DNA from: a virus
Taxonomy: Duplodnaviria > Caudoviricetes
DNA length: 64,000 nucleotides
IMG/VR virus record: IMGVR_UViG_3300010362_000015
Location: 9,593-73,592 of that record
Reading direction: 5' to 3' (one strand)
A program made the position numbers and the translations under genes. Of this stretch, positions 506 to 35,862 are shown piece after piece; the first letter of the stretch is position 1; each line of letters opens with the position of its first letter. Under the pieces are notes generated by a model. It was not told the DNA's origin and did not search any database. It worked only from the letters and a program-made list of their open reading frames with translations.

Positions 506-556
506 ATTTCCTATTCTGCCTGATGCATGCATCTGCGTCAAGAGGCTTGGGGTGAA
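503..556 (-). promoter_or_regulatory. repeat promoter-operator copy 1
   Basis: Minus strand reads TTCACC-N9-TTGACG-17-CAGAAT-7-ATG; operator at 521-534. Confidence 0.85.
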
Positions 557-765
557 TTCTTCCAGGCCCAATCGCGCAGCCGGTCGGCGGCGTCGTTGCG
601 GCGCTCGCCTTCGAGTTGCAGCAGCGTGCTCTCGCCGGGCCGGTTGGGATGCACCAGGACGTCGGCGACGGCGAGCGGCAGATTCTTGCCGCGGTAGCCG
701 AGCGCCCGCGCGCCGCGGCGCAGGTGCTGGTCGGTGATGTCGCGCTCGGGCCGGGGCCGCCTCAT
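538..765 (-). CDS. hypothetical protein (cassette 2, gene 3), 75 aa
   Basis: ATGA overlap with the upstream ORF; its stop is the TGA inside the -35 of promoter 1. Confidence 0.7.
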   Translation of the reverse strand: MRRPRPERDITDQHLRRGARALGYRGKNLPLAVADVLVHPNRPGESTLLQLEGERRNDAADRLRDWAWKNSPQAS

Positions 766-1022
766 ACGTGGGCCGCCACGGCGTCAGCCAGCCTCTTCAG
801 GCCGTCGAGCACGGTCGCGAGATGCTCCAGCCGCTCGGCGTGCTGGTTGGTCGCCTGGATGAAAGCGCCGGGGCCCTGCGGGTAGTAGTCCCGCGCGTTG
901 GGGCCGTTCTCGGCGAGTACGCTGATCGCCTCGCGCACGGCGTTCATCGATTTGATGTAGCCGTCCAGCAGGTCACTGGCGGCGGTGCCGTTCAGGTGGA
1001 TCGAGGGGGTAATGAGTGCCAT
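762..1022 (-). CDS. hypothetical protein (cassette 2, gene 2), 86 aa
   Basis: AAAGG RBS and ATG 2 nt after the upstream stop; protein-like composition. Confidence 0.8.
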   Translation of the reverse strand: MALITPSIHLNGTAASDLLDGYIKSMNAVREAISVLAENGPNARDYYPQGPGAFIQATNQHAERLEHLATVLDGLKRLADAVAAHV

Positions 1023-1024
1023 GG

Positions 1025-1216
1025 TTAGTTGCCTTTCTCGGCCAGCTCCTCGAAGAGCCGGTCCAGTTCATCGTTCTGACGACGCCGGATGATCCGCTTG
1101 GTCGCCCGCCCGCAGCAGCCGCATTCCCATACCGGGCGCCCTTCGGCGTCCACGGTCGCAGTGTGCCGGGTCTGGCATCCGCAAGCTCCGTTGCACTGGC
1201 GTTTCGTCGTCTTCAT
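1025..1216 (-). CDS. small Zn-ribbon-like protein (cassette 2, gene 1), 63 aa
   Basis: CxxxC/CxC and WECGCC Cys clusters; ATG 7 nt after the -10. Confidence 0.7.
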   Translation of the reverse strand: MKTTKRQCNGACGCQTRHTATVDAEGRPVWECGCCGRATKRIIRRRQNDELDRLFEELAEKGN

Positions 1217-1268
1217 ACTTCCTATTGTGCCGGATGCATGCATCTGCCGTCAACGGGTATGGGGTGAA
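1214..1268 (-). promoter_or_regulatory. repeat promoter-operator copy 2
   Basis: TTTCACC-N9-TTGACG-18-CACAAT-7-ATG; operator at 1232-1245. Confidence 0.85.
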
Positions 1269-1534
1269 ACGCGCTCGCGCCTCGCAAAATACTGCTTGAT
1301 CATCTCGTCCTCCGACCGCTCGCGCTCCAGCTCGTTCCAGACCTCGCGCAGCAGGCGCCCGATGCTGCGGCCATAGGGCAGCAGGTCGATGCGGTCCAGC
1401 TCGGCCACGAGGTCGGGGTCGTCAATGCAGCCCATGACGCCGAGGGCCGAGGCCTTGAAGGCCTCCCAAGTCGTCGGGCCGTTCTTGCGCGCGACCACCA
1501 TCAGGCGGAACTTGATGCGCTGGCGGGCGGTCAT
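1250..1534 (-). CDS. hypothetical protein (cassette 3, gene 2), 94 aa
   Basis: ATG just after the upstream stop; terminates on the TGA in the -35 of promoter 2. Confidence 0.75.
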   Translation of the reverse strand: MTARQRIKFRLMVVARKNGPTTWEAFKASALGVMGCIDDPDLVAELDRIDLLPYGRSIGRLLREVWNELERERSEDEMIKQYFARRERVSPHTR

Positions 1535-1535
1535 G

Positions 1536-1727
1536 TTAGCTCACCCTTCCCATCAGCTTCAGGGCCCAGCGGGCGGCCAGCCGTGCGCAGCGACCGGCCT
1601 CAGCCGGGTTGTTGTCGCGAACGTGAAACTCGACCGCGTGGCCCCAGGCGGCAGCCTCGCCGCGGGCGTACTGCGTGTACTCCCGGTCCAGCATGTCTTT
1701 GCGCTCGGATTTGATCAGCTTCTTCAT
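1536..1727 (-). CDS. hypothetical protein (cassette 3, gene 1), 63 aa
   Basis: ATG 7 nt after the -10 TAGGAT. Confidence 0.75.
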   Translation of the reverse strand: MKKLIKSERKDMLDREYTQYARGEAAAWGHAVEFHVRDNNPAEAGRCARLAARWALKLMGRVS

Positions 1728-1778
1728 ACTCACTATCCTACCGGATGCATGCATCTGAGTCAATTGGTTTCAGGTGAA
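1725..1778 (-). promoter_or_regulatory. repeat promoter-operator copy 3
   Basis: TTTCACC-N9-TTGACT-17-TAGGAT-7-ATG; operator at 1743-1756. Confidence 0.85.
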
Positions 1779-1996
1779 ATCTTTGCGAGCGCCGCCAGGG
1801 CCTCGGTCTTGGTCTTGAAGCGTCCATACTCGGGGGCCTCGACCCAGCCGCGCACCGGCGAGATCGGATCTTCGGGCCGCACGAGCGACGAGTCCCAGCG
1901 GGCGATGCCCCAGCTGGCTGCGGTGCGCCGCGCGTAGCTGCGCTGGGAGTGGAAGGCCGTGAGGCGGCGGCTGCCGTAGTTGCGGACGGAGAGCAT
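1760..1996 (-). CDS. hypothetical protein (cassette 4, gene 2), 78 aa
   Basis: GGAGG plus TAATG coupling; stop lies in the -35 of promoter 3. Confidence 0.75.
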   Translation of the reverse strand: MLSVRNYGSRRLTAFHSQRSYARRTAASWGIARWDSSLVRPEDPISPVRGWVEAPEYGRFKTKTEALAALAKISPETN

Positions 1997-2232
1997 TAGC
2001 GCACCTCCGCGGGCGTCATCCAGGCCCGCCGGGTAGCTACGCTCTTCAGCATCTGGCGCACGGTCGAGGCGCTGTGGATGTGGCGGCTGCCGGTGGGATA
2101 TTCGAGCGTGACCAGAGAGCCGCCGGTGACCACGGTCGCGACCTCGAAGGCCTCAGTGTTGCGGTTCCAGTATTCAATCTTCATACCGGCCTCGAACTTC
2201 CGCGTGTGCTGAGTGACTGCTTTGTTCATCAT
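1996..2232 (-). CDS. hypothetical protein (cassette 4, gene 1), 78 aa, possible small SH3/Tudor-like beta fold
   Basis: ATG 7 nt after the -10 TAAGAT; FEAGMKIEY...FEVATVV beta-strand pattern (fold is a guess). Confidence 0.7.
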   Translation of the reverse strand: MMNKAVTQHTRKFEAGMKIEYWNRNTEAFEVATVVTGGSLVTLEYPTGSRHIHSASTVRQMLKSVATRRAWMTPAEVR

Positions 2233-2284
2233 GTCTCTAATCTTATCTGATGCATGCATCTGGAGTCAACGAGCAATGGGTGAA
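2230..2284 (-). promoter_or_regulatory. repeat promoter-operator copy 4
   Basis: TTTCACC-N9-TTGACT-18-TAAGAT-7-ATG; operator at 2248-2261. Confidence 0.85.
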
Positions 2285-2535
2285 ACGCGCCGGGCCTCGC
2301 GGCGTTCCTGCTCCGCGGCCAGCACCTCCTCCTGCCCGTAGATCAGAGCCAGGATGGTGATGCGGCGCTTGTAGTAGAGGCCGAGCCAGCCCTGCGCGGC
2401 GACCTTGCCGTTGCGGTCGTAGAGCCAGCCGCCGTTCATACCGTTGGCGCTGATCTCGACCTTCGCTGCGTACCACTTGGCGAGGCGCACGCGCGCCTCG
2501 CTCCAGGGATCTTGCCAGCACTTGGGAGTCTTCAC
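2266..2535 (-). CDS. hypothetical protein (cassette 5, gene 2), 89 aa
   Basis: AGGAGG RBS and GTG start overlapping the upstream stop; stop lies in the -35 of promoter 4. Confidence 0.75.
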   Translation of the reverse strand: MKTPKCWQDPWSEARVRLAKWYAAKVEISANGMNGGWLYDRNGKVAAQGWLGLYYKRRITILALIYGQEEVLAAEQERREARRVSPIAR

Positions 2536-2819
2536 TTACTTATCCTCCTTTGCACGCGGTAGCGGGCGACGATCTCGGCCCGGCGGGCGTGATCCTTCAG
2601 GGCGTCGGCCTCAGTGAGGTAGTAAACCCGGCGGCCCCTGGAGTCCTTATCCGGCCCCAGTTCGGCGAACATCCGGGTGCAGTGCAGGCAGCGCCATACC
2701 TTGTCATGCGTGACGCCGATCTCGGTCCCGGTCTTCAGGGCCGTCTTGCATTGCGGGCACTGTGAGTCAAACTTTGCCTTGATGGTTCGGATCTCGGCGG
2801 GCTTCATTGTCGTTTCCAT
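2532..2819 (-). CDS. Zn-finger protein (cassette 5, gene 1), 95 aa
   Basis: CPQC and CLHC pairs; ATG 6 nt after the -10. Confidence 0.75.
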   Translation of the reverse strand: METTMKPAEIRTIKAKFDSQCPQCKTALKTGTEIGVTHDKVWRCLHCTRMFAELGPDKDSRGRRVYYLTEADALKDHARRAEIVARYRVQRRISK

Positions 2820-2869
2820 GTTCTTAGTTTGCCAGATGCATGCATCTCACGCAAGGGGGAAGGGGTGAA
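2817..2869 (-). promoter_or_regulatory. repeat promoter-operator copy 5
   Basis: TTTCACC-N9-TTGCGT-17-CAAACT-6-ATG; perfect palindrome AGATGCATGCATCT at 2834-2847. Confidence 0.85.
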
Positions 2870-2873
2870 ATGC

Positions 2874-3110
2874 TCACCCCTGTGTCAGCCGCATGTGGCG
2901 CCGCGTCAGCCGCGGATGCCGCCGGAGCCGGTGGCCCTGGCTCATGTTGGTCAGCTGCTCGGCGACGCATGCGACGCGGAACCGCATGGGCGTGTGATGC
3001 GCCGCGGTGGCGTCCAGGGCCGCCGACATCGGCGAGCGCCCGTCGGTTTCGTCGCGGGCGGCCCGGCGCGCAGCGCCCCAGGCCAGATGGAATAATTCTC
3101 GTGTCGTCAT
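2874..3110 (-). CDS. hypothetical protein (cassette 6, gene 2), 78 aa, MTTREL start
   Basis: AAAGGA RBS upstream of ATG 3110. Confidence 0.7.
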   Translation of the reverse strand: MTTRELFHLAWGAARRAARDETDGRSPMSAALDATAAHHTPMRFRVACVAEQLTNMSQGHRLRRHPRLTRRHMRLTQG

Positions 3111-3124
3111 GTTCGTTCTTTCCT

Positions 3125-3388
3125 TTACCCTTTGAGGGCCGCCTCCGCGGCGGCCCGGTTGGTGCGCTTCCACTGCCCGTTCTGCATGAGGTAGAAGGTC
3201 GCGCGGAAGTGTTCCCGCTTGGGCATCGTGCGTGCGGTCACCGGAACCACATAAGCCTGGACGACGCCGTTGTCGGCGCTGCCTCTCTTCCAGCAAGCCT
3301 GAAACGTGCTGCCGTCTTCCCGGGTAACGGTGCGGATCTCCAGGGCCTTCGCGATTGCCGCGTCGATCAGTTGTTCTAACGTGTTCAT
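3125..3388 (-). CDS. hypothetical protein (cassette 6, gene 1), 87 aa
   Basis: ATG 6 nt after the -10 CATACT. Confidence 0.75.
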   Translation of the reverse strand: MNTLEQLIDAAIAKALEIRTVTREDGSTFQACWKRGSADNGVVQAYVVPVTARTMPKREHFRATFYLMQNGQWKRTNRAAAEAALKG

Positions 3389-3438
3389 GACTTAAGTATG
3401 CCAGATGCATGTATCTGGAGCAAGGGGCTTGGGGTGAA
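3386..3438 (-). promoter_or_regulatory. repeat promoter-operator copy 6
   Basis: TTTCACC-N9-TTGCTC-17-CATACT-6-ATG; operator variant AGATACATGCATCT at 3403-3416. Confidence 0.85.
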
Positions 3439-3442
3439 ATGC

Positions 3443-3470
3443 AAAAAAAGAGGGGCCCATTGCGGGCCCC
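3443..3470 (-). terminator. intrinsic terminator insulating the cassette array from the upstream operon
   Basis: GGGGCCC stem (3452-3458/3464-3470), 5-nt loop, then CT and a 7-nt T run on the minus strand. Confidence 0.85.
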
Positions 3471-3521
3471 GAATTAATGGAGCTGTAAATGAAGCCGCGG
3501 GCCGGAAGGCCCTGGCAGCTG

Positions 3522-3752
3522 TCAGTCTATCGTTGATCGGGGCCGACGGGTGATGCCTTTCGAGCCCCACTGTTCGATACACCACTGGCGGGCCAATTCC
3601 CGCACCGTGCGCCCGCAGCGCGTGCAGAGGATGCGCTGGACGCCGTCCTGCGAGTTCTGCACCACCGGCAGGCCGCAACAAAACGGGACCGCGTGCCCCT
3701 CGGGCGTGGTGCGCAGTTCCTCGAATTCCAGCAGGGCCTCGGCGAGAGTCAC
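3522..3752 (-). CDS. small Cys-rich hypothetical protein
   Basis: GTGA overlap; FCCG and LCTRCG motifs. Confidence 0.6.
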   Translation of the reverse strand: MTLAEALLEFEELRTTPEGHAVPFCCGLPVVQNSQDGVQRILCTRCGRTVRELARQWCIEQWGSKGITRRPRSTID

Positions 3753-4045
3753 AGCGCCTCGATCTCGAAGTGGCCGCCGCCGCGGTGCTCGACCCACGGC
3801 CCCCACGGTCTGCCGCCGATCTCCTCGCGCATGGCCAGCATGACCAGCTTGCCCTCGTCGCGCAGCAGCGTCATGCCGCCCGACCTGTCGATCACAAAGG
3901 GCGGCTTGTCGTCGAACGCCACGGCAATCGAGCGCTGGTTTGCGGAGATGATCAACACAGCGCCGGGCGCCGCCTGCTCCGGCGAGCCGTGCGGGTAAAC
4001 TCTCACGCGCTGGCCGGTGATCAATTTAGCCGATGGACCTTGCAT
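3749..4045 (-). CDS. hypothetical protein, 98 aa
   Basis: ATG 4045 (MQGPSAK); protein-like; stop overlaps the next start. Confidence 0.7.
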   Translation of the reverse strand: MQGPSAKLITGQRVRVYPHGSPEQAAPGAVLIISANQRSIAVAFDDKPPFVIDRSGGMTLLRDEGKLVMLAMREEIGGRPWGPWVEHRGGGHFEIEAL

Positions 4046-4775: not shown

Positions 4776-5380
4776 AGCTCGGGGATCGACCACTGAACGT
4801 GATGAACGATCTCTTTGCATGTCTTCAACTCCCGAATCAGCGCCCCTGCGATTTTCATACGCCGGTTCAGGCTGCGCCAATCGGGGCTTCTCCGATACGC
4901 CTCATCCTCCATGCGCGAGTATTCGATGCGAACGCCAGCCATATTGCGTGCAGTCCACTGTTTTGCCCCGCTATACGGACCCATCAATCCCGGCCCGATG
5001 ATGATGCCATGTTGTGGCCGCTCGGCCTGCCAGATGGAGAAGTCCGCGAACACGCGGTCGGCGACCGCGATCAGATGGCCGTTCCACCTGCCGACGGTTG
5101 ATCCGACCGGAGGATGACCGAATCCGATCCCGATGCTATAGGAGCCGTCAACGCTGATCCACTTGCGGAGGTCGTAGTCGCCCTCGTCGATATGCATCGC
5201 GAACGCGCGGTTGTAGATCGCCACTTGGCAGGCGACGGGTTGAACCTCGATGCCAAAATATCGCGCGACTTCCATGGCGACGCGCACGCCGAACACGCAC
5301 AGGTCGCGCCGCTTCAGGTTCGTTTCAATCGCCGGGCCGATCCGCGGGACGAGCTGCTGGAAGAGTTCCGCGGCGGTCAC
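4772..5380 (-). CDS. hypothetical protein, possible transglutaminase/papain-like fold
   Basis: Cys in DLCVFG, His in WNGHLIAV, Asp in FADFS, in catalytic-triad order. Confidence 0.6.
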   Translation of the reverse strand: MTAAELFQQLVPRIGPAIETNLKRRDLCVFGVRVAMEVARYFGIEVQPVACQVAIYNRAFAMHIDEGDYDLRKWISVDGSYSIGIGFGHPPVGSTVGRWNGHLIAVADRVFADFSIWQAERPQHGIIIGPGLMGPYSGAKQWTARNMAGVRIEYSRMEDEAYRRSPDWRSLNRRMKIAGALIRELKTCKEIVHHVQWSIPEL

Positions 5381-5874
5381 TCTCCGGCCTCCGTCTCGTA
5401 GATCACCTCAGCATAGGCGAAGCGCACAAGCCGGATCTTCTTGCCCATGGCGCTGGCTTGCGCCTCGAAGCGCTCCGCGAAGGGCTCGACCTTGCCGCGC
5501 TTGACCGCCACGATGGGAATGTAGCCCGCCGGGCAGAGGCCTTGCTTGATGCCCCATTCGCCGGTGCGTTGAGTGCGGTCGGGCTGATCGTCCTGGCCGA
5601 TCCAGGCGTATAGCTCCATGTTCTTAATCCGTTCGGGTATGCGGTTCACGATCATTTCCTTGTCGATCACTCCCAGGTCTGTCGCCGCCCGCAACAAATC
5701 TTTCAGGTCATGCGCATCGAATTTTTCGTACAGGTGATACCAGTGGTTCCTCACGCTCTGAGAAGTTGTGCGCAGACGGCCTGCGATCTGCCGGGCGTTT
5801 CTTCCTGCGGCCAGCAGCTTGAGAATATCCAGCTCACGCGGAGTGAGGTGCGGCGGCTTTGCGGGCCCTGTCAC
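5377..5874 (-). CDS. LuxR/GerE-type HTH protein with an unknown C-terminal domain
   Basis: N-terminal LTPRELDILKLLAAGRNARQIAGRLRTTSQSVRNHWYHLYEKF matches the LuxR HTH pattern. Confidence 0.85.
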   Translation of the reverse strand: MTGPAKPPHLTPRELDILKLLAAGRNARQIAGRLRTTSQSVRNHWYHLYEKFDAHDLKDLLRAATDLGVIDKEMIVNRIPERIKNMELYAWIGQDDQPDRTQRTGEWGIKQGLCPAGYIPIVAVKRGKVEPFAERFEAQASAMGKKIRLVRFAYAEVIYETEAGE

Positions 5875-6065
5875 TCAATACCTCCTGTGGTTCTTGACCT
5901 GATGCTGCGTCGCCTCGGCGCAGGTCGCATAGTGGCCGTCGGTAAAAAACTCGTCGCACTGGCGGCAGTAGTTCTTCCAGACGTGCGCTTCGCAATGCGG
6001 GCAGCGCTTGCGCTCAGTTGCGTCGCGGGCCTGATCGGCGCGCAGGTTGACGATATCGTGATCAT
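5871..6065 (-). CDS. small Zn-finger protein, 64 aa
   Basis: CPHC, CRQC and HYATC motifs. Confidence 0.65.
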   Translation of the reverse strand: MITISSTCAPIRPATQLSASAARIAKRTSGRTTAASATSFLPTATMRPAPRRRSIRSRTTGGIE

Positions 6066-6271
6066 TCAACAGCGGCATGCTTCTCTTCGGCCTCCGCGAC
6101 CGAGCCGCGCTTGGCGTAGGAACGGTCGCATCGGAAATGGTAGTACCGCCCTTTCTCCGTGGTCACGCCCCAATTGTTGCCGCGTATCAAGCCGATCTCT
6201 TCCATGCGCAGCGCGATGGCCTTGAACTGGGAGTCGAAGAACTCGCGGTCGGCATTATCCATCGGCCTCAT
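6062..6271 (-). CDS. hypothetical protein, 69 aa
   Basis: ATGA overlaps on both sides. Confidence 0.65.
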   Translation of the reverse strand: MRPMDNADREFFDSQFKAIALRMEEIGLIRGNNWGVTTEKGRYYHFRCDRSYAKRGSVAEAEEKHAAVE

Positions 6272-6417
6272 GAATCCACTTCTTCCTCCAGCGCCTCGAT
6301 GGCTCTCGTCAGATTGGCCGCGGCGTCGCGCAGGTGGCCGAGCGTAGCAAGCTTGTCCTGCCCGTGCGCGGCCTGCAGGTCGATCATGGCGGCGTCCATC
6401 AGTTGTTCCCAGTTCAT
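6268..6417 (-). CDS. hypothetical protein, 49 aa (MNWEQLMDAAM...EEEVDS), not in the ORF track
   Basis: Read manually; ATGA overlaps with both neighbours. Confidence 0.65.
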   Translation of the reverse strand: MNWEQLMDAAMIDLQAAHGQDKLATLGHLRDAAANLTRAIEALEEEVDS

Positions 6418-6755
6418 TGCACGGTCCCCTTTTTGCGCAGCATCTCAGCCGTGGCCTTCGCCACCTTATCCGCCAGCCCCGGCTCTTGCATCGAGCTGGC
6501 CTCGATCACCACGTCGGCGACCTGCCGCAGCCGCGCGGGCAGCTCCGCGTTGTCCGTCCCGAGCACCACCAGGGGTTTGTCGAGCAGTAGCGCCAGCCCC
6601 AATTGCAGCGCCATCCAGATGTCCTTGTCCTTGTCGCTGAAGATGGGGCAGAACACCATCGCCGAATTCGTCATCTTCGGGATGATGTCGCCGCGCGCCT
6701 TATCGCGCAGGCGTTGGAACACCTCGCGGATTTCGTCTTCTGTTGGCTCTTTCAT
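6414..6755 (-). CDS. nucleoside 2-deoxyribosyltransferase-like (NDT/TIR-like) small protein
   Basis: DIWMALQLGLALLLDKPLVVL resembles the ExGxAxAxxKP motif but has Gln in place of Glu. Confidence 0.5.
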   Translation of the reverse strand: MKEPTEDEIREVFQRLRDKARGDIIPKMTNSAMVFCPIFSDKDKDIWMALQLGLALLLDKPLVVLGTDNAELPARLRQVADVVIEASSMQEPGLADKVAKATAEMLRKKGTVQ

Positions 6756-7345
6756 TGCGTGCGCCTCCGAATAAAATCATCGACGTCCGTCTTGCCGTCT
6801 CGCCGGTACATTTTCAGCCTGCCGTCGAAGTGGGAGGCGTCGCTGAAATGTACGTCGGGTTTGCCGGTGAACACACCGCGCCCCATGATGTCCTGGGAGT
6901 ACATGCACACGCGCTCGGGCGTCTGCGCGATGCAGGCGAGCGCGTCGCACATCGTCAGCAGGCCCTGTTTAAGCATCTCGTGATGGTGCTTATGGCCATC
7001 GGGATGTCGGTTGAGATGGTATTCGATCTCCTCGGGCGGCAACGTTTCCAGCGCTTTGGTCGGCCTGAATTTATTGACTACTGAGACGATCACGATGGCG
7101 TCAGGCGGCGACAGCGTACATGCATACTGGAGCATGCCGAAGCCAAGATCCTTCGATCCGCCGTGCTCCAGCCAATCCTCGCCCAGGCGTTCCTCGATTT
7201 CGCGCTCGAATTTGCGCATGCGGTACAGGGTTTCGCCCTCGTGATACGTCGCCAGCAGGATGCTGCGCCAGCGCTTCATTCGCAGATCGACTTTGGCCAT
7301 GTTGGCGGCTTGATAGCAGAGGCCCTCCAGCACCCTGTCGGTCAT
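6752..7345 (-). CDS. hypothetical protein, 197 aa
   Basis: AAGGA RBS, ATGA coupling, high GC3. Confidence 0.75.
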   Translation of the reverse strand: MTDRVLEGLCYQAANMAKVDLRMKRWRSILLATYHEGETLYRMRKFEREIEERLGEDWLEHGGSKDLGFGMLQYACTLSPPDAIVIVSVVNKFRPTKALETLPPEEIEYHLNRHPDGHKHHHEMLKQGLLTMCDALACIAQTPERVCMYSQDIMGRGVFTGKPDVHFSDASHFDGRLKMYRRDGKTDVDDFIRRRTQ

Positions 7346-7515
7346 TCCTTGTCCTGCTCTTTCCGCAGATCGTCGATGCGCGTCTCGCACCAGTCGATCT
7401 GCCGGTCGATGGCCGTCGAGGTGCGCCGCAGAAATTTGATCTGCTCGCGCAGGAACTCGATCTCCTTCTCGATCAGCTCGCGTTTGGTCATCTCAGGGGG
7501 CCCGGCGCTCTCCAT
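7342..7515 (-). CDS. small coiled-coil protein, 57 aa, not in the ORF track
   Basis: Read manually: KRELIEKEIEFLREQIKFL heptad pattern. Confidence 0.65.
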   Translation of the reverse strand: MESAGPPEMTKRELIEKEIEFLREQIKFLRRTSTAIDRQIDWCETRIDDLRKEQDKE

Positions 7516-7587
7516 ACCTACGGTTCTCTCTTTTACGACGATGGTAGCCGGGCCCCTTCCTCACCTTGCGGTGAAGCTCATCGAAAC

Positions 7588-7824
7588 TCATTGCCGATGC
7601 GTCCAATTCGTCCACGCAATCGCCGCCGCGCGCGCGGCCTGCCGCTTGGTCATCTGCGGCGGATCATTCTCATCCGAACCTTGCACGTAGCAGCCGCACC
7701 GGTGCTCGATGTGCGCGACCGATCCGGCGATGCTGCGGAATCCGCACTCGCCATGCATCGGCTGCTGGAAGTGGGGATGCTGTTCTAGCGCACCGACCGG
7801 CTCTTTACACCACGTGCAGTTCAT
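7588..7824 (-). CDS. Cys/His-rich hypothetical protein
   Basis: CTWC, MHGECG and HRCGC motifs; ATGA coupling. Confidence 0.7.
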   Translation of the reverse strand: MNCTWCKEPVGALEQHPHFQQPMHGECGFRSIAGSVAHIEHRCGCYVQGSDENDPPQMTKRQAARAAAIAWTNWTHRQ

Positions 7825-8162
7825 GACGTCGCCGCCATTTTCACCAGCTCCAGAATTCTCATGTGGCCCTCGACGGCTTTGTCGTAGCTGTCGTAGCGCC
7901 GCTGCTGGAGATCGTCGCGCCAGCGCCAGCCGCCGAAGACCATCGTTTCCCAAAGCACTGGCCCGCCGCGCCGCATCCAATTGTGGTCGATCCCCAAGAA
8001 CACGGTCGAGACGACGTAGTCGCCGATCTTGTCCTGGCGCACAATGCGATCCGCGGACTCGAACCACGCGGCCCACTTGAGCGTGTCGCGCTCGATCACC
8101 GGCGTTCTGCCGTCAGGCGCGAGCACGTAGTTGTCGAGCACGCTGCGCCGCCGCCCTCTCAT
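7821..8162 (-). CDS. phage hypothetical protein
   Basis: VSTVFLGIDH...WETMVFGG motif recalled from uncharacterised phage proteins. Confidence 0.75.
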   Translation of the reverse strand: MRGRRRSVLDNYVLAPDGRTPVIERDTLKWAAWFESADRIVRQDKIGDYVVSTVFLGIDHNWMRRGGPVLWETMVFGGWRWRDDLQQRRYDSYDKAVEGHMRILELVKMAATS

Positions 8163-8620
8163 GTCAAATTCGTGATGGGGAATTTTTCCCCCTCGCGGTA
8201 TAGCGCCAGCCGTAGGGTAACGCCGGGGTAATACTCGCTGTCGGCGTCCACGCATACATCGAGCCCGGCGTCCAGCGCCCAATCCAAAAGCGTCTTCAGG
8301 GTGTCGCGGTCCAGGCGCGAGTAGGGATGAAAAATCGCCGCATAAGGCCGCCCGTTGCGGTTGTACAGTCGAATGTGGTCGAAGAGGTGTTCGATCTCCG
8401 ACTTCAGATCGAGGCCATGGTAATTGCCCCTCCGAAGACGCTCTGGGTGGGTCGCCAGACGGCGCAGAAAACTATCCACTGCGCGGTGACTGCGTTGCAT
8501 TCCGGCCTGTCGATAGCAGTCGGTATTGATGCGGCTCCGCTCATTTGCCAGAACCTGTACGGCGCGATCACAATCGCTCTTTCCAAACGAACCGCCCGCC
8601 GGGGCCAGATCGTCTCTCAT
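8159..8620 (-). CDS. hypothetical protein, 153 aa
   Basis: AAGGAGGGA RBS upstream of ATG 8620. Confidence 0.7.
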   Translation of the reverse strand: MRDDLAPAGGSFGKSDCDRAVQVLANERSRINTDCYRQAGMQRSHRAVDSFLRRLATHPERLRRGNYHGLDLKSEIEHLFDHIRLYNRNGRPYAAIFHPYSRLDRDTLKTLLDWALDAGLDVCVDADSEYYPGVTLRLALYREGEKFPITNLT

Positions 8621-8633
8621 GCTTCCCTCCTTC

Positions 8634-9563
8634 TCAAATCTTGACCTCCACATCGCGTTCCTTCACGATCTTCTTGCCGCGGTTGCCGCGCACGGTCATG
8701 GGCGACCAGACCAACGTGTTGTATTTCCCGAACAGGCCTGCACCTTGTCTGTAGTCCCTGAAATGCCCGCGGCAGATATGCAGCGCGCGTGCGAGCCCGA
8801 CCTTGTCGGAGCCGCCCTCACGCTTGAGAATCTGCTTGAGCGGCTCGATTACGAGCGTCTTGTAGCCCGACGGGCTCGCGCCCCCGTGCCGCTCGCGATA
8901 GCGCTTCACCAGCTTCGCGTCGGGCTGGTTGTCGATCACGCGCACATTCTTACAGTGCAGGAACGAGATCGCCAGGAAGGTCGGGTTGAGATAAGTGATG
9001 TGCGCCTTGAGGATCTCATCGTGCAGCCCGCCGGTGTAGGTCTGTATCCATGGCCGCTCGATGATCGCGCCGTTCTCATCCACCATGAGAAAGACCGAGC
9101 CATGCGGCCCGTCGGCGACGATATCGCGCCTGATCCGGTAGTCGATGAAATACTCGCACCATAAGATCCACTTGCATGTATCAGGTGCGGCCTTGTCGGC
9201 GACGATCTGGCCCTGAGGATCGAGGGCGGATACGAGCACGCCCATGCGCCCGCCCGCGAAGTGGTCGGAGATATCCGTCAGCCCCTTCTCTTTCGAATAA
9301 ACGTGGTTGGGCAGCGGATGCTCGAACCAGCACTGCGTCCACGGCGGCGCGAGGTTGGGCATGTCGGTGCGCAGATCCCAATACTCCTGATCGCTCTGGA
9401 AGAAATACTCCGCGATGTTGGCGATATGGATCACCGGCATATCGGCCTGCAGGAAGTCGAGCACCTTCTGCGCGTACCGCTCCCACACGTCTTCCATGCT
9501 GGGCGCGATGAACCACGGCATGCGCACCGGGCCGCGGCGAAGATCATCGAGGAAGCGGGCCAT
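8634..9563 (-). CDS. hypothetical protein, paralogue A, 309 aa
   Basis: Long ORF; C-terminal LHICRGHFRDYRQGAGLFGK shared with the neighbour. Confidence 0.85.
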   Translation of the reverse strand: MARFLDDLRRGPVRMPWFIAPSMEDVWERYAQKVLDFLQADMPVIHIANIAEYFFQSDQEYWDLRTDMPNLAPPWTQCWFEHPLPNHVYSKEKGLTDISDHFAGGRMGVLVSALDPQGQIVADKAAPDTCKWILWCEYFIDYRIRRDIVADGPHGSVFLMVDENGAIIERPWIQTYTGGLHDEILKAHITYLNPTFLAISFLHCKNVRVIDNQPDAKLVKRYRERHGGASPSGYKTLVIEPLKQILKREGGSDKVGLARALHICRGHFRDYRQGAGLFGKYNTLVWSPMTVRGNRGKKIVKERDVEVKI

Positions 9564-9566
9564 ATG

Positions 9567-10502
9567 TCAGATGCGTACTTTGATCTCGGGCGGCGTTGCC
9601 TTGGCGCCTTCTGCCTTCGAGCCGCGGACGTGCATCGGCTGCCAGTAGATCCCGTGGTGTTTGCCGAATAAGCCCGGGCCCTCGCGGAAATCCATGAAGT
9701 GTCCGCGGCAGATGTGCAGCGCCTTCTGCAGGCCGATCTCGCCCGACCGGCCCTCCTTCTCCAGGATGCCCTTTAATGGTTCGATTACGAGCGTCTTGTA
9801 TGGAGCCGGGCTCACGCCGCCATGGCGTTCGCGATAGCGCTTCGCCAGCTTGGGATCGGCGGTGTGATCGATAATTCGCACGTTCTTGCAATGCAGGAAG
9901 CATAGCGTTAGCAGAACAGGATTGAGCGACAGCTGTAGAGCTGCGCTCTCGCCAGGAACGGGCTTATCGCCGTAGGACGCCTGAAACCATCCGACCGGGC
10001 GCCCTTCTTTGCTTATGTCAACATAGATCGGAGGCGTTGGCCCCAATGGCTTCCAGCTGCGAACACCCCTGATCTGATAGCTCTCGCCGAAACTTAGGCA
10101 GAGTTCACACTGGAGAATCCATCTGGTTTCAGCGGACGGAGCTTGAGTTTCTGCGTAGTGGCCAACGAGAGCAGCGGGGTCAAGCGCTGTTATCAGAAAG
10201 CCGAAACGGGAGCGGGGACTTGCTACTGGTAGAAATTTACCCCAAGGCGGCTTGCGGAACTCGGCCCAAAACTGCGTGTAAGGTGGGGCGAGGTTCGGGA
10301 AGTCGCGCACAATATCCCACTTGATTTCTTCGCCGCCATAAATATAGTCGGCTATATTGTCGATCAGAAATATTGGCAGATCGCCCATCAAGGCAGTGGT
10401 GAAGCTTTCCCGGGCCTTGAGCCAGTGCGGCGATGTCACCGGAACGGACTCGGGCCTTTCCAATCTGCTATCGGCGCGCAGATCATCGATGAACCGGCTC
10501 AT
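9567..10502 (-). CDS. hypothetical protein, paralogue B, 311 aa
   Basis: Long ORF; shares MxRFxDDLR, PNLAPP and the C-terminal block with 8634-9563. Confidence 0.85.
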   Translation of the reverse strand: MSRFIDDLRADSRLERPESVPVTSPHWLKARESFTTALMGDLPIFLIDNIADYIYGGEEIKWDIVRDFPNLAPPYTQFWAEFRKPPWGKFLPVASPRSRFGFLITALDPAALVGHYAETQAPSAETRWILQCELCLSFGESYQIRGVRSWKPLGPTPPIYVDISKEGRPVGWFQASYGDKPVPGESAALQLSLNPVLLTLCFLHCKNVRIIDHTADPKLAKRYRERHGGVSPAPYKTLVIEPLKGILEKEGRSGEIGLQKALHICRGHFMDFREGPGLFGKHHGIYWQPMHVRGSKAEGAKATPPEIKVRI

Positions 10503-10509
10503 GACAACC

Positions 10510-10836
10510 TCACGCCGCGGTCGAGCGCTTCTGCGGCTCTTGCAGCTCGGCCCTGGTCGGCATTCGATACAGCGACGGGTCGAGCCACGTCGTCAGCGGC
10601 GCGTAGACGTTCTTGCGCGTGATGCTGGTGTGGCCGAACTGCTCCCAGGCCTCGACGCCCGCGCGCGTCGCGTGGAAGCCCTTGCCCGGCCTGTATGCGA
10701 CCCAGCCTCGGATCAACATGCTCCTGAGCGGCCTCTGGTCGTAGCGCGCCGCATCTACGACGGGCATGTACCAGTTGGTGCCGTTCTGCGCGAAGATCTT
10801 GAGCATCGGGTGCTGCCGGTTGCTGAGGTTGATCAT
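10510..10836 (-). CDS. hypothetical protein, possible winged helix, 108 aa
   Basis: LRSMLIRGWVAYRPGKGFHATRAG resembles a wHTH wing; GGAGAGAG RBS. Confidence 0.6.
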   Translation of the reverse strand: MINLSNRQHPMLKIFAQNGTNWYMPVVDAARYDQRPLRSMLIRGWVAYRPGKGFHATRAGVEAWEQFGHTSITRKNVYAPLTTWLDPSLYRMPTRAELQEPQKRSTAA

Positions 10837-11617: not shown

Positions 11618-11671
11618 CCTCTGATCAGCTCCATTTCCTTAGTGGTCTAGCCGCCACTTTTTTTGCTATTG

Positions 11672-11701
11672 ATACTACATCTATCGGGCGCGAAATTTCA
11701 A
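11672..11701 (-). promoter_or_regulatory. sigma70-type promoter for the accessory operon starting at 11617
   Basis: TTGAAA-18-TAGTAT in an AT-rich gap. Confidence 0.55.
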
Positions 11702-16416: not shown

Positions 16417-16627
16417 CAGCGATAGCCTCCACGGCGGCGAGCTTGGCCTTGAGCACCGGGGCCGCGTAGTGGGCGCAGATGCGCAGCGCCTCGACGGGAT
16501 CGTCGGTCCTGGTATTGAGCTGCAGTACGTCGCCCCTGAGGTCGCGGTAGATCGCCCAGTAAACGACGCCTCGTTTGTGTATCGACCCGGCCCGAAACGG
16601 CAGCCGCGTCTGAATGGGTTTCTTCAT
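16244..16627 (-). CDS. protein with an integrase arm-binding-like N-terminus, first gene after promoter 9
   Basis: AGSIHKRGVVYWAIYRD resembles the GSIxKRxxxWxxxY start of tyrosine-integrase arm domains; ATGA coupling to the recombinase. Confidence 0.6.
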   Translation of the reverse strand: MKKPIQTRLPFRAGSIHKRGVVYWAIYRDLRGDVLQLNTRTDDPVEALRICAHYAAPVLKAKLAAVEAIADGQEATWAGVVQAAVTEGDDHRRGAKPPGRAERARSGRSAAAHSTAAKTRAGGEARS

Positions 16628-16677
16628 GTCTCGAAATTAACATGATCCGTATTAAGCCTCAAGAGTTTTGGGGTGAA
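16625..16677 (-). promoter_or_regulatory. repeat promoter copy 9 (no operator)
   Basis: TTTCACC-N9-TTGAGG-17-TAATTT-6-ATG; spacer lacks ATGCAT. Confidence 0.7.
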
Positions 16678-16973
16678 ATCGGGCGCTTGGGCTCCTCAAC
16701 CCGCCAGGGAGAATCTGGGCCCTGGGGCTCTCCCCGGTCGGCTGAATCGACTGCCTTTTCCTTTACGCGTTCCTGAGCGTCCCGCTGCCATACGCACGCC
16801 AGGATGTCTTCGGCCCACGTCACAGCCACCTCGATTTTCAACTTTCTTTTTCCGCCGATCTCGATGCCGTTGTATGTTTCTATCTGGCCTTGCAGCAGTA
16901 GCGTCGCCATCAAGGCCAGCAGGCGATTGTCAAAAGCGTCCCACTCTTCCATGGTCATAACCTTCTCCTTCAT
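16659..16973 (-). CDS. hypothetical protein, 104 aa
   Basis: ATG 16973; stop is the TGA in the -35 of promoter 9. Confidence 0.7.
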   Translation of the reverse strand: MKEKVMTMEEWDAFDNRLLALMATLLLQGQIETYNGIEIGGKRKLKIEVAVTWAEDILACVWQRDAQERVKEKAVDSADRGEPQGPDSPWRVEEPKRPISPQNS

Positions 16974-30422: not shown

Positions 30423-30433
30423 AGTGTTCTCCT

Positions 30434-34624: not shown

Positions 34625-35064
34625 TACGCGACCTCCACGAGCATGAGCCCGGGCATGACGTGGCGGCCCAGTTCGGTGCGCTGCGACCAATCGCCGCGGA
34701 AGATGCAGGTCACGCGCCCCTGCGTGCTGGCGCCCGATGAGTCGTAGTTGCTGCCCATGTGATGATTCGGCAGGACGTCGAAGGGATTGTAGAAGTAGAA
34801 GGGCCGCAGGCCGCCCTGCACCGTGACGTCGAAGAAGTTGTAGAGGGTGGCGAGCTGGCCGGAGTTGAGCCGTTTGGCCATCGTCCAGGTACGCAGCGCG
34901 CGCGGCGCGTTGACGCCGTCCTGGATGACGGAACGTTCGAGCGTCCCGTCGTTGTACATCATGACCAGCAGCGGGTAGGAGAGGGATTCGGCGAAGGAGG
35001 TGCAGAGGGATTGCGGCAGCACCGCACCAGCCGCAACTGACGCTGCAGCGAGGTTCCCGGGCAC
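34624..35064 (-). CDS. distal tail protein (Dit-like)
   Basis: LYNFFDVTVQGGLRPFYFYNP motif; lies between tape measure and tail tip. Confidence 0.7.
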   Translation of the reverse strand: MPGNLAAASVAAGAVLPQSLCTSFAESLSYPLLVMMYNDGTLERSVIQDGVNAPRALRTWTMAKRLNSGQLATLYNFFDVTVQGGLRPFYFYNPFDVLPNHHMGSNYDSSGASTQGRVTCIFRGDWSQRTELGRHVMPGLMLVEVA

Positions 35065-35089
35065 GATGCTGCTATTTTAGCTGGGGTTT

Positions 35090-35281
35090 TTACGCCGGGC
35101 GAGGCCGGATGGCAAAGATCTCGGCTGACGGATATACCCTGCGGATCGCTTCCATGTTCGATTCGTCCCGCCCGGGGAAGATATCATCCAGGCCGTGGTC
35201 GCACTCGATTTTCTGAGTGCGATTGTTCCAGGAGGCATATACTGCGAGGTCCATCTTGGGAAAGTAGATTGTGTAATTCAT
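35090..35281 (-). CDS. hypothetical protein (cassette 7, gene 2), 63 aa
   Basis: GGGGAG RBS, ATGA overlap. Confidence 0.7.
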   Translation of the reverse strand: MNYTIYFPKMDLAVYASWNNRTQKIECDHGLDDIFPGRDESNMEAIRRVYPSAEIFAIRPRPA

Positions 35282-35484
35282 CGGCCTTCTCCCCGGCGAG
35301 CGGTCATGCCGTGGTTGCCGTGGCTGTCCTCCACGCTGAGGCCGAGCGCCAGGGCCACTACGCGGAGCTGGCCCTTGGGGACGCCGCACTCGCGCGACGC
35401 CCTCGTCAGCGAAACCCAGCCGCGGCGACCGGCTGCCACTTCCTTCATCTGGTTGACCGCTTTGTCGTATGCTTCGTTCTTCAT
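35278..35484 (-). CDS. hypothetical protein (cassette 7, gene 1), 68 aa, possible HTH
   Basis: ATG 6 nt after the -10; WVSLTRASRECGVPKGQLRVVAL is HTH-like. Confidence 0.7.
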   Translation of the reverse strand: MKNEAYDKAVNQMKEVAAGRRGWVSLTRASRECGVPKGQLRVVALALGLSVEDSHGNHGMTARRGEGR

Positions 35485-35534
35485 ATTTTCAGGATAGAGC
35501 AGATGCATGCATGGCGCAACAGTCTTGGGGTGAA
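35482..35534 (-). promoter_or_regulatory. repeat promoter-operator copy 7 (inside the tail operon)
   Basis: TTTCACC-N9-TTGCGC-17-TATCCT-6-ATG; operator at 35501-35514. Confidence 0.85.
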
Positions 35535-35535
35535 A

Positions 35536-35811
35536 TCAGAACAGGATGTCGTCGGGGTGAGGCGTCCACAAGTCGGGCCGTTCGGGGTGCTCGTAGGGTT
35601 CGTCCGCTGCCTGGGGGAGATCATCCGCCTGGGGCTCATCGGCCTCGGGCTTATCGGCCTGATGGCGGATGTAGGAGGCGTGGTCGAACCAGGGCAGCTG
35701 GACTGCGCGAAACATGGTGTAATCGGCGTTCCAGACGAACTCGAAGCGGTTCGGGTTAAAGTTCTCGCACTCGCTCGCCGGGAACCACTTGCTGTTATCG
35801 TGTGTGCTCAT
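35536..35811 (-). CDS. acidic protein (cassette 8), 91 aa, C-terminus PDDILF
   Basis: ATG 6 nt after the -10 TAGACT; Asp/Glu/Pro-rich tail. Confidence 0.75.
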   Translation of the reverse strand: MSTHDNSKWFPASECENFNPNRFEFVWNADYTMFRAVQLPWFDHASYIRHQADKPEADEPQADDLPQAADEPYEHPERPDLWTPHPDDILF

Positions 35812-35862
35812 ATTCAAAGTCTAACGTCGGATGCATGTATCTGGCAAGAGGCTTTGGGTGAA
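35809..35862 (-). promoter_or_regulatory. repeat promoter-operator copy 8 (directly after the tape measure stop)
   Basis: TTTCACC-N9-TTGCCA-18-TAGACT-6-ATG; operator at 35829-35842. Confidence 0.85.

What the first reader, a model, noticed from the sequence alone, without database searches (positions are those of the whole stretch)
551..35862. Invariant TTCACC element exactly 9 nt upstream of the -35 in all nine promoters
Seen: TTCACC (TTTCACC in eight of nine) is followed by exactly 9 variable nt and then TTG in every copy (551-556, 1263-1268, 1773-1778, 2279-2284, 2864-2869, 3433-3438, 16672-16677, 35529-35534, 35857-35862). The 9-nt spacer sequence varies while its length does not. Inference: fixed helical phasing suggests a protein contact site at about -45 to -50, either an activator or alpha-CTD site or an unrecognised promoter element of the host polymerase. 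AraC-family activators bind next to -35 boxes, so the phage AraC is one candidate.
Basis: partly seen in the sequence, partly recalled or inferred. Interest (0 to 1): 0.75.

Follow-up and report, generated by a model that had tools for sequence, protein, structure and literature searches.

The report
Conserved upstream box in phage promoters
Nearly every promoter of this soil phage, and of several barely related phages, carries the same 12-letter DNA box at a fixed distance upstream of the -35 site; this is probably a docking site for a host transcription component and has not been described before.

Summary
TTCACC-N9-TTG occurs nine times in the window, all on the minus (coding) strand, where 0.23 is expected. 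There are 13 copies in the 73.6-kb temperate siphovirus genome.

TTCACC is the core of a 12-nt box, RTTTCACCCCAA. Five variable bases follow, then TTGAC. Each box heads a sigma-70-type promoter with a 17-18-nt spacer, usually a GATGCATGCATC palindrome, a -10, and an ATG 6-7 nt later (a leaderless-type start).

The box, at about -52 to -41, is conserved in at least four other phage genomes and in many soil contigs. Their operators, leaders and genes differ, and they share few or no proteins with this phage. The box also occurs inverted at the same position and in tandem 21-22 nt apart.

The AraC candidate fails: one relative has seven modules and no AraC. No phage protein tracks the box.

The box is not enriched in 401 Acidobacteriota reference genomes. 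An exact copy does sit at a chromosomal groESL promoter of a Terracidiphilus-like bacterium, but this may be coincidence.

Best reading (about 0.5): a contact site for a host-supplied factor or the RNA polymerase alpha subunit. What reads it is unknown.

The parts
503..558 (-). Promoter module 1: box AATTCACCCCAA 547-558; -35 TTGACG 536-541; palindrome core 523-532; -10 CAGAAT 513-518; ATG 503-505 (102-aa ORF 197-505)
   Evidence: the independent consensus scan called it sigma-70-like
1214..1270 (-). Promoter module 2: box GTTTCACCCCAT 1259-1270; -35 TTGACG 1248-1253; palindrome core 1234-1243; -10 CACAAT 1224-1229; ATG 1214-1216 (63-aa ORF)
1725..1780 (-). Promoter module 3: box ATTTCACCTGAA 1769-1780; -35 TTGACT 1758-1763; palindrome core 1745-1754; -10 TAGGAT 1735-1740; ATG 1725-1727 (63-aa ORF)
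2230..2286 (-). Promoter module 4: box GTTTCACCCATT 2275-2286; -35 TTGACT 2264-2269; palindrome core 2250-2259; -10 TAAGAT 2240-2245; ATG 2230-2232 (78-aa ORF)
2817..2871 (-). Promoter module 5: box ATTTCACCCCTT 2860-2871; -35 TTGCGT 2849-2854; palindrome core 2836-2845; -10 CAAACT 2826-2831; ATG 2817-2819 (95-aa ORF with weak zinc-ribbon matches)
3386..3440 (-). Promoter module 6: box ATTTCACCCCAA 3429-3440; -35 TTGCTC 3418-3423; palindrome core 3405-3414 (1 mismatch); -10 CATACT 3395-3400; ATG 3386-3388 (87-aa ORF). An intrinsic-terminator-like hairpin lies just upstream at 3452-3470
16625..16679 (-). Promoter module 7, without the palindrome: box ATTTCACCCCAA 16668-16679; -35 TTGAGG 16657-16662; -10 TAATTT 16634-16639; ATG 16625-16627 (127-aa ORF 16244-16627, directly upstream of the serine integrase 14556-16247)
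35482..35536 (-). Promoter module 8: box ATTTCACCCCAA 35525-35536; -35 TTGCGC 35514-35519; palindrome core 35503-35512; -10 TATCCT 35491-35496; ATG 35482-35484 (68-aa ORF, followed by tail genes)
35809..35864 (-). Promoter module 9: box ATTTCACCCAAA 35853-35864; -35 TTGCCA 35842-35847; palindrome core 35831-35840 (1 mismatch); -10 TAGACT 35818-35823; ATG 35809-35811 (91-aa ORF). Lies directly after the tape-measure gene 35865-39653

Best explanation
TTCACC is the core of a 12-nt upstream promoter box, RTTTCACCCCAA. Five variable bases separate it from the -35 hexamer of sigma-70/sigma-A-type promoters. If the ATG is taken as +1, the box spans about -52 to -41.

It is a module in its own right. 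It is independent of the palindromic operator in the -35/-10 spacer and of the type of 5' end (leaderless or with a leader). It accompanies almost every recognisable promoter of this temperate siphovirus and of several barely related soil phages.

Most likely it is a docking site for something the host supplies. That could be a sequence-specific host DNA-binding activator, or the C-terminal domain of the RNA polymerase alpha subunit acting as at an UP element. Either would help recruit polymerase to phage promoters from the first moments of infection.

Shown: the anatomy, the fixed spacing, conservation across phages, the absence of a co-occurring phage protein, and the failure of AraC as a candidate.
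For: 1. Enrichment and strand bias. The window has 10 TTCACC-N9-TTG matches against 0.23 expected, nine of them the minus-strand copies. The genome has 13. RTTTCACCC occurs 19 times against 0.63 expected in G000, 9 against 0.79 in G067, 7 against 0.82 in G001, and 4 against 0.62 in G069.

2. A defined 12-nt box. The sum of the per-position values is about 20 bits. The flanks are randomised: nothing is conserved upstream, and the next five bases vary.

3. Locked to the -35. Spacing is 9 in 24 of 26 promoter copies and 8 in the other two. The palindrome's offset in the same modules varies from 7 to 10 nt.

4. The promoters are sigma-70-type. Spacers are 17-18 nt, and the -10 hexamers have A at position 2 and T at position 6. 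An independent scan called four modules in window 1-4000 against 0.6 expected.

5. Conserved while everything else changes. G001 has CTGCATGCRG spacers. G067 has TTCGAGCGA spacers and leaders with a Shine-Dalgarno sequence. A metagenome phage family has AGCGCT spacers.

6. Module 16677 has the box but no palindrome. A box promoter also drives the integrase in G001. The box is therefore not tied to one regulatory class. Promoters that must fire first cannot wait for a phage-made protein.

7. No protein is shared by all box-bearing phages. G068 shares none with G000. G067 shares only four, and none of those showed a DNA-binding match; only the 309-aa family was tested by fold.

8. Among high-GC soil contigs, 17 of 34 exact-core sites have a correctly spaced -10. 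Among chance hits in reference genomes the figure is 2 of 38.

9. An exact box at the right spacing sits at a chromosomal sigma-A-type groESL promoter with CIRCE, in a bacterium whose GroEL is 93-94% identical to Terracidiphilus MAGs.

10. Related groESL promoters have TTCACA or TTTTACC at N9, or ATTT-rich patches, at the same position.
Against: 1. Box plus TTGAC is at chance level in candidate host-lineage genomes: about 44 against 36 for the control in 61 Acidobacteriaceae, and 8 against 8 in 401 Acidobacteriota. Nearly all of those hits lie inside long ORFs and lack a -10. The bare 9-mer is not enriched either.

2. The closest relatives of the groESL promoter that has the box lack the full box. 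About 1e12 bases were scanned (my rough estimate), so the bacterial hits may be chance.

3. The host assignment is weak. The Terracidiphilus MAG contigs that carry phage relatives hold only phage genes.

4. Known UP elements are A/T-rich and degenerate. This box is half C-rich and nearly invariant.

5. The box also occurs inverted at the same position and in tandem 21-22 nt apart. That fits a discrete DNA-binding protein better than a direct alpha-subunit contact, and it does not by itself indicate activation.

6. Most copies already have a good -35, so the promoters do not obviously need an activator.

7. There are no transcript or binding data.
Confidence: 0.5

Rival explanations
1. The box is the binding site of a phage-encoded regulator, an activator or co-regulator made early or carried in the virion. 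Candidates are the AraC-family protein (window 24460-25467), the GerE/LuxR-type HTH protein (5377-5874), or a small, fast-evolving DNA-binding protein.
For: The box is far denser in phage genomes than in bacterial ones: 19 per 73.6 kb against about chance. Its information content, tandem copies in helical phase, and inverted copies are typical of a dedicated DNA-binding protein. In G000, a cluster of inverted boxes flanks a basic 101-aa ORF at genome 5468-5773, which could be an autoregulated gene.
Against: No protein co-occurs with the box. AraC is found only in G000 and G001. The GerE-type HTH protein was not found in any relative. GP88 is absent from G067 and G068. The 101-aa ORF has no homologue in the other four genomes. 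G068 shares no protein with G000. A 12-bp specificity that stays invariant while the protein diverges beyond detection is unlikely. Promoters that fire first cannot depend on a protein not yet made.
Confidence: 0.2
2. The box is a negative or insulating site. It could be a stoperator-like roadblock or a second operator that stops read-through from the upstream cassette, or that hinders polymerase at the adjacent promoter.
For: It is an asymmetric site present in many copies, mostly in one orientation relative to transcription. It lies at the 3' ends of upstream genes in a head-to-tail array that has almost no terminators. This resembles the multi-copy asymmetric repressor sites of cluster A mycobacteriophages (from my own knowledge).
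Against: The distance to the -35 is strictly fixed, which a roadblock would not need. The box is conserved among phages whose operators differ, so these would have to share a repressor, and no shared protein exists. It is also present at the first promoter of an array and at a chromosomal groESL promoter.
Confidence: 0.12
3. The box is a linker or hitch-hiker of mobile promoter cassettes. On this view it is kept because cassettes spread and recombine through the shared module, as proposed for T4-type PeSL elements, and it has no direct role in transcription.
For: The array consists of one to three small ORFan genes, each behind the same roughly 55-nt module. Two modules are inserted moron-like between tail genes. 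PeSL cassettes of T4-type phages behave this way (PMC2839356).
Against: Between phages only 12 + 5 bases are shared, which is too short for homologous exchange. The flanks and the 5-nt linker are randomised while the box and its spacing are kept, which indicates selection on the box itself.
Confidence: 0.08
4. The element acts at the RNA level in read-through transcripts, for example as a processing site or a C-rich Rho-loading patch.
For: Transcripts from upstream promoters must contain the box, and it is C-rich.
Against: Its spacing is fixed to a DNA element, the -35. It functions in either orientation at the same DNA position. It is present at promoters with no upstream transcription unit.
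Confidence: 0.03

Closest known systems
UP elements of sigma-70 promoters (rrnB P1; T4 early promoters)
   Same: An extra promoter element in the -40 to -60 zone, upstream of a sigma-70-type -35. It is used by phage early promoters that must compete for host polymerase without any phage protein. T4 early promoters also show consensus beyond -35 and -10 (PMC2988021). The 5' half of the box (ATTTCA) is A/T-rich, and related host groESL promoters have ATTT-rich patches at the same place.
   Different: UP elements are A/T-rich and degenerate. This box has an invariant C-rich half (CACCCC) and about 20 bits. It also occurs inverted and in tandem 21-22 nt apart. It is not enriched in the host-lineage genomes searched.
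Fixed-position sites of monomeric or adaptor-type activators next to the -35 (MarA/SoxS marboxes; the Spx-alpha-CTD -44 element; lambda CII at PRE/PI) - from my own knowledge
   Same: A short asymmetric site with a strict distance requirement to the -35, centred at about -45.
   Different: No cognate protein has been identified. Marboxes are about 20 bp, degenerate, and constrained in orientation. CII sites flank the -35. Here most promoters already have a good -35.
Stoperators and asymmetric repressor sites of cluster A mycobacteriophages (L5 gp71) - from my own knowledge
   Same: A 12-13-bp asymmetric site in about 20 copies per genome, mostly in one orientation relative to transcription, in short intergenic spaces.
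   Different: Stoperator sequence tracks immunity type and the repressor. This box is shared by phages with different operators and no common repressor, and it is locked to the -35.
PeSL promoter cassettes of T4-type phages (PMC2839356)
   Same: Repeated composite promoter modules directly upstream of ORFans in plastic genome regions. A few cassettes are inserted among core genes.
   Different: PeSLs combine an A/T-rich early promoter with a stem-loop terminator. Here there is a C-rich upstream box, an operator palindrome and a leaderless-type start, and only one module is preceded by a terminator.

Membership tests
Sigma-70/sigma-A-type promoter | -35 TTGACA-like and -10 TATAAT-like hexamers separated by 16-18 nt | tested here: met
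   All nine window modules have TTG[A/C]NN, then 17-18 nt, then a hexamer with A at position 2 and T at position 6. An independent scan found 4 in window 1-4000 against 0.6 expected.
Sigma-70/sigma-A-type promoter | Transcription starts about 7 nt downstream of the -10 | not testable with these tools
   No transcript data. An ATG lies 6-7 nt after the -10 in all 13 G000 modules, which is consistent with leaderless mRNAs but is an inference.
UP element (alpha C-terminal domain site) | Located between -40 and -60 | tested here: met
   The box spans about -52 to -41 if the ATG is +1.
UP element (alpha C-terminal domain site) | A/T-rich sequence (PMC2988021) | tested here: not met
   Only the first 5-6 bases are A/T-rich; CACCCC is invariant.
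UP element (alpha C-terminal domain site) | Contacted by the alpha C-terminal domain and increases transcription | not testable with these tools
   Needs footprinting or in vitro transcription with an alpha C-terminal-domain deletion.
Binding site of the phage AraC-family regulator | The regulator co-occurs with its sites | tested here: not met
   An AraC homologue is found in G000 and G001 only. G067 (7 modules), G068 and G069 have none.
Binding site of the phage AraC-family regulator | Two recognition segments about one helical turn apart within roughly 17-20 bp | tested here: not met
   There is a single contiguous 12-nt conserved block. The next conserved block (TTGAC) is centred about 15 bp away. 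The criterion itself comes from my own knowledge of MarA/AraC sites.
Stoperator-type repressor site | The site sequence co-varies with immunity type or repressor | tested here: not met
   The box is identical in phages with three or more different spacer palindromes and no shared repressor candidate.
PeSL-type mobile promoter cassette | A composite of an early promoter and a stem-loop terminator flanking ORFans | tested here: inconclusive
   Promoter modules precede ORFans. Only one of six modules in window 1-4000 has a terminator-like hairpin upstream. No recombination evidence was sought.

The most novel reading that the evidence does not exclude
The box is a new kind of sequence-specific upstream promoter element, a half C-rich counterpart of the UP element. 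On this reading it is read directly by the RNA polymerase (alpha C-terminal domain or sigma region 4) of a Terracidiphilus-like Acidobacteria lineage. That lineage's phages and mobile elements exploit it at almost every promoter, while the host itself uses it sparingly.
Probability: 0.2. Interest if true: 0.75.

Novelty: new variant of a known kind. Interest (0 to 1): 0.55.

Why it matters
Little is known about promoters and phage gene control in Acidobacteria, a dominant but rarely cultured group of soil bacteria. A fixed-position 12-nt box shared by otherwise unrelated phages would have several uses:

1. It gives a testable entry point to how their polymerase is recruited.
2. It could serve as a sequence signature linking uncultivated phages and mobile elements to a common host group.
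3. It offers a ready-made strong-promoter design (box, -35, operator, -10, leaderless start) for genetic tools in these organisms.

If a host factor reads the box, the phages have tied all their promoters to that factor's activity. That would be an unusual regulatory dependence.

Tried and rejected
1. N4-like phage with hairpin promoters. Rejected: the large ORFs are a collagen-like fibre, tape measure and tail proteins, with a lambda-type terminase and a serine integrase.

2. First viral scan with box plus palindrome. It found only a conserved coding sequence of unrelated phages, which are chance hits.

3. Rejected by co-occurrence.

4. GerE/LuxR-type HTH protein. Not found in the relatives.

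5. The 309/311-aa paralogue pair shared by G000, G001, G067 and G069. It has no DNA-binding fold, and its only suggestive structural match is the anti-CRISPR AcrVA2. A 68-kb relative with a homologue has no box in the 16 kb held.

6. The 196-aa protein shared by the three array-bearing genomes. It has no known family, is absent from G068 and G069, and its structure was not examined beyond the atlas look-up.

7. GP88. Absent from G067 and G068.

8. A divergent repressor gene next to the box cluster of G067. None was found.

9. Alternative sigma readings (sigma-54, ECF, sigma-32; TTTCAC as a -35). No conserved partner element at the required distance across phages (by inspection).

10. IHF, CRP/FNR, DnaA-box, LexA and marbox resemblances. 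Spacing or sequence does not fit (by inspection, from my own knowledge of the consensus sequences).

11. Chi-like site. The 9-mer is at chance level in five host-lineage genomes.

12. The excess of the 9-mer in MAG G006. Those sites lie inside ORFs.

13. Coding artefact. In five window copies the upstream ORF reads through the box and stops on the TGA inside the -35. In the other four, and in the relatives, the box is non-coding.

14. Literature search for the box sequence. Nothing relevant.

15. AraC homologues as a host clue. The search returned only the query.
Full report
**1. What the window is**

The window is bases 9593-73592 of a 73,592-bp IMG/VR virus record, rated complete. Its GC content is about 62.6%. 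The genome encodes:

- a lambda-type gpA terminase
- an S49 prohead protease
- a tape-measure protein
- a 2706-aa collagen-repeat fibre
- a serine integrase
- an O/DnaD-like replication protein

This makes it a temperate siphovirus. Almost all genes lie on the minus strand. The exception is an AraC-family gene (24460-25467, plus strand) in a lower-GC island.

**2. The observation**

- TTCACC-N9-TTG occurs 10 times in the window against 0.23 expected. Nine matches are the copies reported, all on the minus strand.
- The tenth match (40098, plus strand) has no -10 and I judge it chance.
- The full genome has four more copies upstream of the window, 13 in all.

**3. The module**

Aligning the copies shows a module of about 55 nt. 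It consists of, in order:

- R-TTTCACC-CCAA
- five variable bases
- TTG(A/C)NN
- a 17-18-nt spacer; in 12 of 13 copies it holds the palindrome GATGCATGCATC
- a -10 hexamer with A at position 2 and T at position 6 (CAGAAT, TAGGAT, CATACT and others)
- 6-7 nt
- an invariant ATG that opens an ORF of 63 to 308 aa

An independent consensus scan calls the same hexamers: 4 promoter-like sites in window 1-4000 against 0.6 expected. With the ATG only 6-7 nt after the -10, these would be leaderless or nearly leaderless mRNAs. This is an inference, as there are no transcript data.

The promoter-proximal ORFs have no significant Pfam family match. Ten modules form a head-to-tail array of small cassettes at genome positions 6830-13030. 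Two lie just after the tape-measure gene. One heads the integrase region.

**4. The element is a 12-nt box**

I built a logo from 26 promoter copies in five phage genomes. One coding-strand chance hit was also included in the alignment.

- The conserved block is R-T-T-T-C-A-C-C-C-C-A-A. Summing the per-position values gives about 20 bits against genome composition.
- No conservation is seen in the 10 bases upstream, and very little in the next five bases. TTGAC follows.
- If the ATG is +1, the box covers about -52 to -41.

**5. Spacing is under selection**

The distance from TTCACC to TTG is 9 in 13 of 13 G000 copies and in 24 of 26 copies overall; the other two have 8. In the same modules the palindrome's offset from the -35 takes the values 7, 8, 9 and 10. 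Small insertions and deletions are thus tolerated inside the module, but not between the box and the -35.

In five window copies the upstream ORF reads through the box and stops on the TGA inside TTGAC or TTGAGG (ORF ends at 538, 1250, 1760, 2266). In the other four, and in the relatives, the box is non-coding. Coding constraint therefore does not explain its conservation.

**6. Relatives**

*G001.* The portal protein found a complete 70.8-kb relative, G001 (68% identity). It has five modules with the same box, TTGAC, a -10 and an ATG at the leaderless distance. Its spacer word is different: CTGCATGCRG-like.

*G067.* Scanning IMG/VR with the box-plus-TTGAC core found G067 (66.4 kb). It has a seventh box at 4856 with no TTGAC, plus six full modules (4902-12527) that all share the box, a third spacer word (TTCGAGCGA) and a GAAACT -10. 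Five of the six have TTGACA exactly 9 nt after TTCACC; the sixth (9695) has 8. They have leaders of about 25 nt with a Shine-Dalgarno sequence.

*Others.* G068 and G069 each carry copies. Further relatives show the box upstream of leaderless-type promoters even where the -35 is poor: L023, L025 (TTACGC) and L029 (TAGACC).

*Enrichment.* RTTTCACCC counts against dinucleotide shuffles:

| Genome | Observed | Expected |
|---|---|---|
| G000 | 19 | 0.63 |
| G067 | 9 | 0.79 |
| G001 | 7 | 0.82 |
| G069 | 4 | 0.62 |

The box is therefore a module separate from the operator-like palindrome. It persists across phages whose operators and 5' ends differ.

**7. Other configurations**

- *Inverted.* GGGGTGAAAY lies 3-5 nt upstream of a -35-like hexamer at G000 genome positions 4936 and 5465, and at G001 39564. 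At 5465 the core covers exactly the same nine positions as in the direct copies. The G001 copy drives that phage's serine integrase from a leaderless-type start.
- *Tandem.* Boxes 21-22 nt apart occur in G067 (4833/4854) and in metagenome phages (L264, L292).
- *No palindrome.* The G000 module at 16677 has the box but no palindrome, and it heads the integrase region.

The box thus accompanies promoters of different regulatory classes. Only one operator-bearing site, at genome position 358, lacks it.

**8. Who reads it: the phage?**

All-against-all BLASTP and phmmer comparisons of ORFs found no protein common to G000, G001, G067, G068 and G069. Candidates examined:

| Candidate | Result |
|---|---|
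| AraC | In G000 and G001 only; G067 has seven modules and none |
| GerE-type HTH protein | Not found in any relative |
| 309/311-aa paralogue pair | Large family; confident model (pLDDT 83); only suggestive fold match is AcrVA2 |
| 196-aa protein | Only in the three array-bearing genomes; no known family |
| GP88 | Absent from G067 and G068 |

A dedicated phage-encoded reader is therefore not supported. A very small or fast-evolving protein cannot be excluded.

**9. Who reads it: the host?**

*Host identity.* The only relative in a species genome is on a Terracidiphilus sp. MAG. The two MAG contigs concerned carry only phage genes, so that link rests on binning.

*Reference genomes.* Box plus TTGAC is at chance level:

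- About 44 against 36 for the control in 61 genomes of that family.
- 8 against 8 in 401 genomes of the phylum, with no genome having several hits.
- Almost all of these hits lie in long ORFs without a -10.

The family-level tallies and the groES survey include two genomes flagged unpublished (G008, G031). No individual claim rests on them.

*Metagenome scan.* A scan with ATTTCACCCCAA-N5-TTGAC gave 107 loci.

- 17 of the 34 distinct high-GC sites have a correctly spaced -10. Among chance hits in reference genomes the figure is 2 of 38.
- Most of these are phage-like arrays.
- One, L307, is a bacterial chromosome. The box sits five bases upstream of TTGACA-N18-TATCGT. A CIRCE-like repeat follows, then groES and groEL. 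A tRNA-Arg and a cobalamin riboswitch lie nearby.
- The L307 GroEL is 93-94% identical to several Terracidiphilus MAG proteins.
- Other box promoters precede a CarboxypepD_reg-domain protein, an epimerase, a VWA protein and a LysM protein.

*Caveat.* The groESL promoters of L307's closest relatives carry only ATTTCACTTAGG (N8) or ATTTTGCTTAAA there. More distant family members show TTCACA-N9, TTTTACC-N9 or ATTT-rich patches. About 1e12 bases were scanned (my rough estimate), so the bacterial hits could be rare coincidences built on an A/T-rich, UP-like patch. They show that the box is compatible with a host sigma-A promoter. They do not show that the host uses it systematically.

**10. Weighing the readings**

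Four points favour recognition by something the host provides:

- The box is at nearly all promoters, including those that must fire before any phage protein exists.
- It is conserved across phages that share few or no proteins.
- No phage protein co-occurs with it.
- It occupies the zone where the alpha C-terminal domain and activators make contact.

Four points count against a classical UP element and favour a discrete DNA-binding protein:

- the invariant C-rich half
- about 20 bits of information
- inverted copies at the same position
- tandem copies in helical phase

I put about 0.5 on a positive-acting contact site for a host-supplied component, either a host factor or the alpha subunit. 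The remainder is about 0.2 on a phage-encoded regulator, 0.12 on a negative or insulating site, 0.08 on a cassette linker with no direct role, and 0.03 on an RNA-level role. I hold with much higher confidence, about 0.85, that the box is a functional protein-contact element coupled to the -35.

**11. Comparison with known systems**

- It works most like an UP element or a fixed-position activator site. T4 early promoters are the best phage precedent for extra upstream information used to capture host polymerase (PMC2988021).
- The cassette array resembles T4-type PeSL cassettes (PMC2839356).
- The multi-copy asymmetric site recalls cluster A mycobacteriophage stoperators (from my own knowledge).
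- It fails defining tests for each: it is not A/T-rich, has no stem-loop terminators, and does not co-vary with immunity.
- No paper in the library mentions the box in a phage or promoter context.

I rate it a new variant of a known kind. Earlier unchecked notes of this scan on the same genome had already described the module array. I found no note of the box on other DNA.

Noticed in passing
window 8634-9563 and 9567-10502 (minus strand): Two adjacent paralogues (309 and 311 aa, 41% identical) belong to a large, well-conserved phage family: 585 homologues, PHROG 20769, function unknown. A confident AlphaFold model (pLDDT 83) has only one suggestive PDB match, the anti-CRISPR AcrVA2 (7ci2_A, probability 0.72, similar length).
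   Followed up: partly
window 523-532, 1234-1243, 1745-1754, 2250-2259, 2836-2845, 3405-3414, 35503-35512, 35831-35840: A GATGCATGCATC palindrome sits in the -35/-10 spacer of 12 of 13 modules, at an offset of 7-10 nt from the -35. Related phages have different palindromes at the same place (CTGCATGCRG, TTCGAGCGA, AGCGCT). These look like operators of heteroimmune repressors. The repressor gene was not identified.
   Followed up: partly
window 16625-16679: This is the only module without the palindrome. It heads a 127-aa ORF that overlaps the start of the serine integrase. In relative G001 the integrase itself is driven by an inverted-box, leaderless-type promoter.
   Followed up: partly
window 503-505, 1214-1216, 1725-1727, 2230-2232, 2817-2819, 3386-3388, 16625-16627, 35482-35484, 35809-35811: An ATG lies 6-7 nt downstream of every -10, which implies leaderless mRNAs. 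G067, G068 and a metagenome phage family use the same box with 25-90-nt leaders and Shine-Dalgarno sequences instead.
   Followed up: partly
window 538, 1250, 1760, 2266, 16659: The upstream ORFs read through the box and terminate on the TGA inside the next promoter's -35 (TTGAC or TTGAGG). Gene ends and promoters therefore overlap.
   Followed up: yes
window 24460-25467 (plus strand): A full-length AraC-family gene (AraC_binding_2 plus HTH_18) is the only plus-strand gene. It lies in a 57% GC island and has a 42% identical homologue at the equivalent place in G001. Its role is unknown: lysogenic conversion, or an immunity-like regulator.
   Followed up: partly
L016 (genome) 4900-5850, outside the window: Three or four promoters with inverted boxes share a second operator-like word, (T)ACATGTATCT. 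They flank a basic 101-aa ORF (genome 5468-5773) that has no homologues in the relatives.
   Followed up: partly
L307 2560-2700; L342-L371: groESL promoters of Acidobacteriaceae carry both a HAIR-like repeat (TGAGT-N7-ACTCA) upstream of the -35 and a CIRCE element after the -10. This suggests dual HspR- and HrcA-type control.
   Followed up: no
G067 leaders (L204 about 6630-6660, 9720-9750, 12555-12585): In G067 the start codons behind box promoters are preceded by a conserved A(Y)ACCCC-ATG context. The CACCCC core of the box is repeated there. Its meaning is unknown.
   Followed up: no
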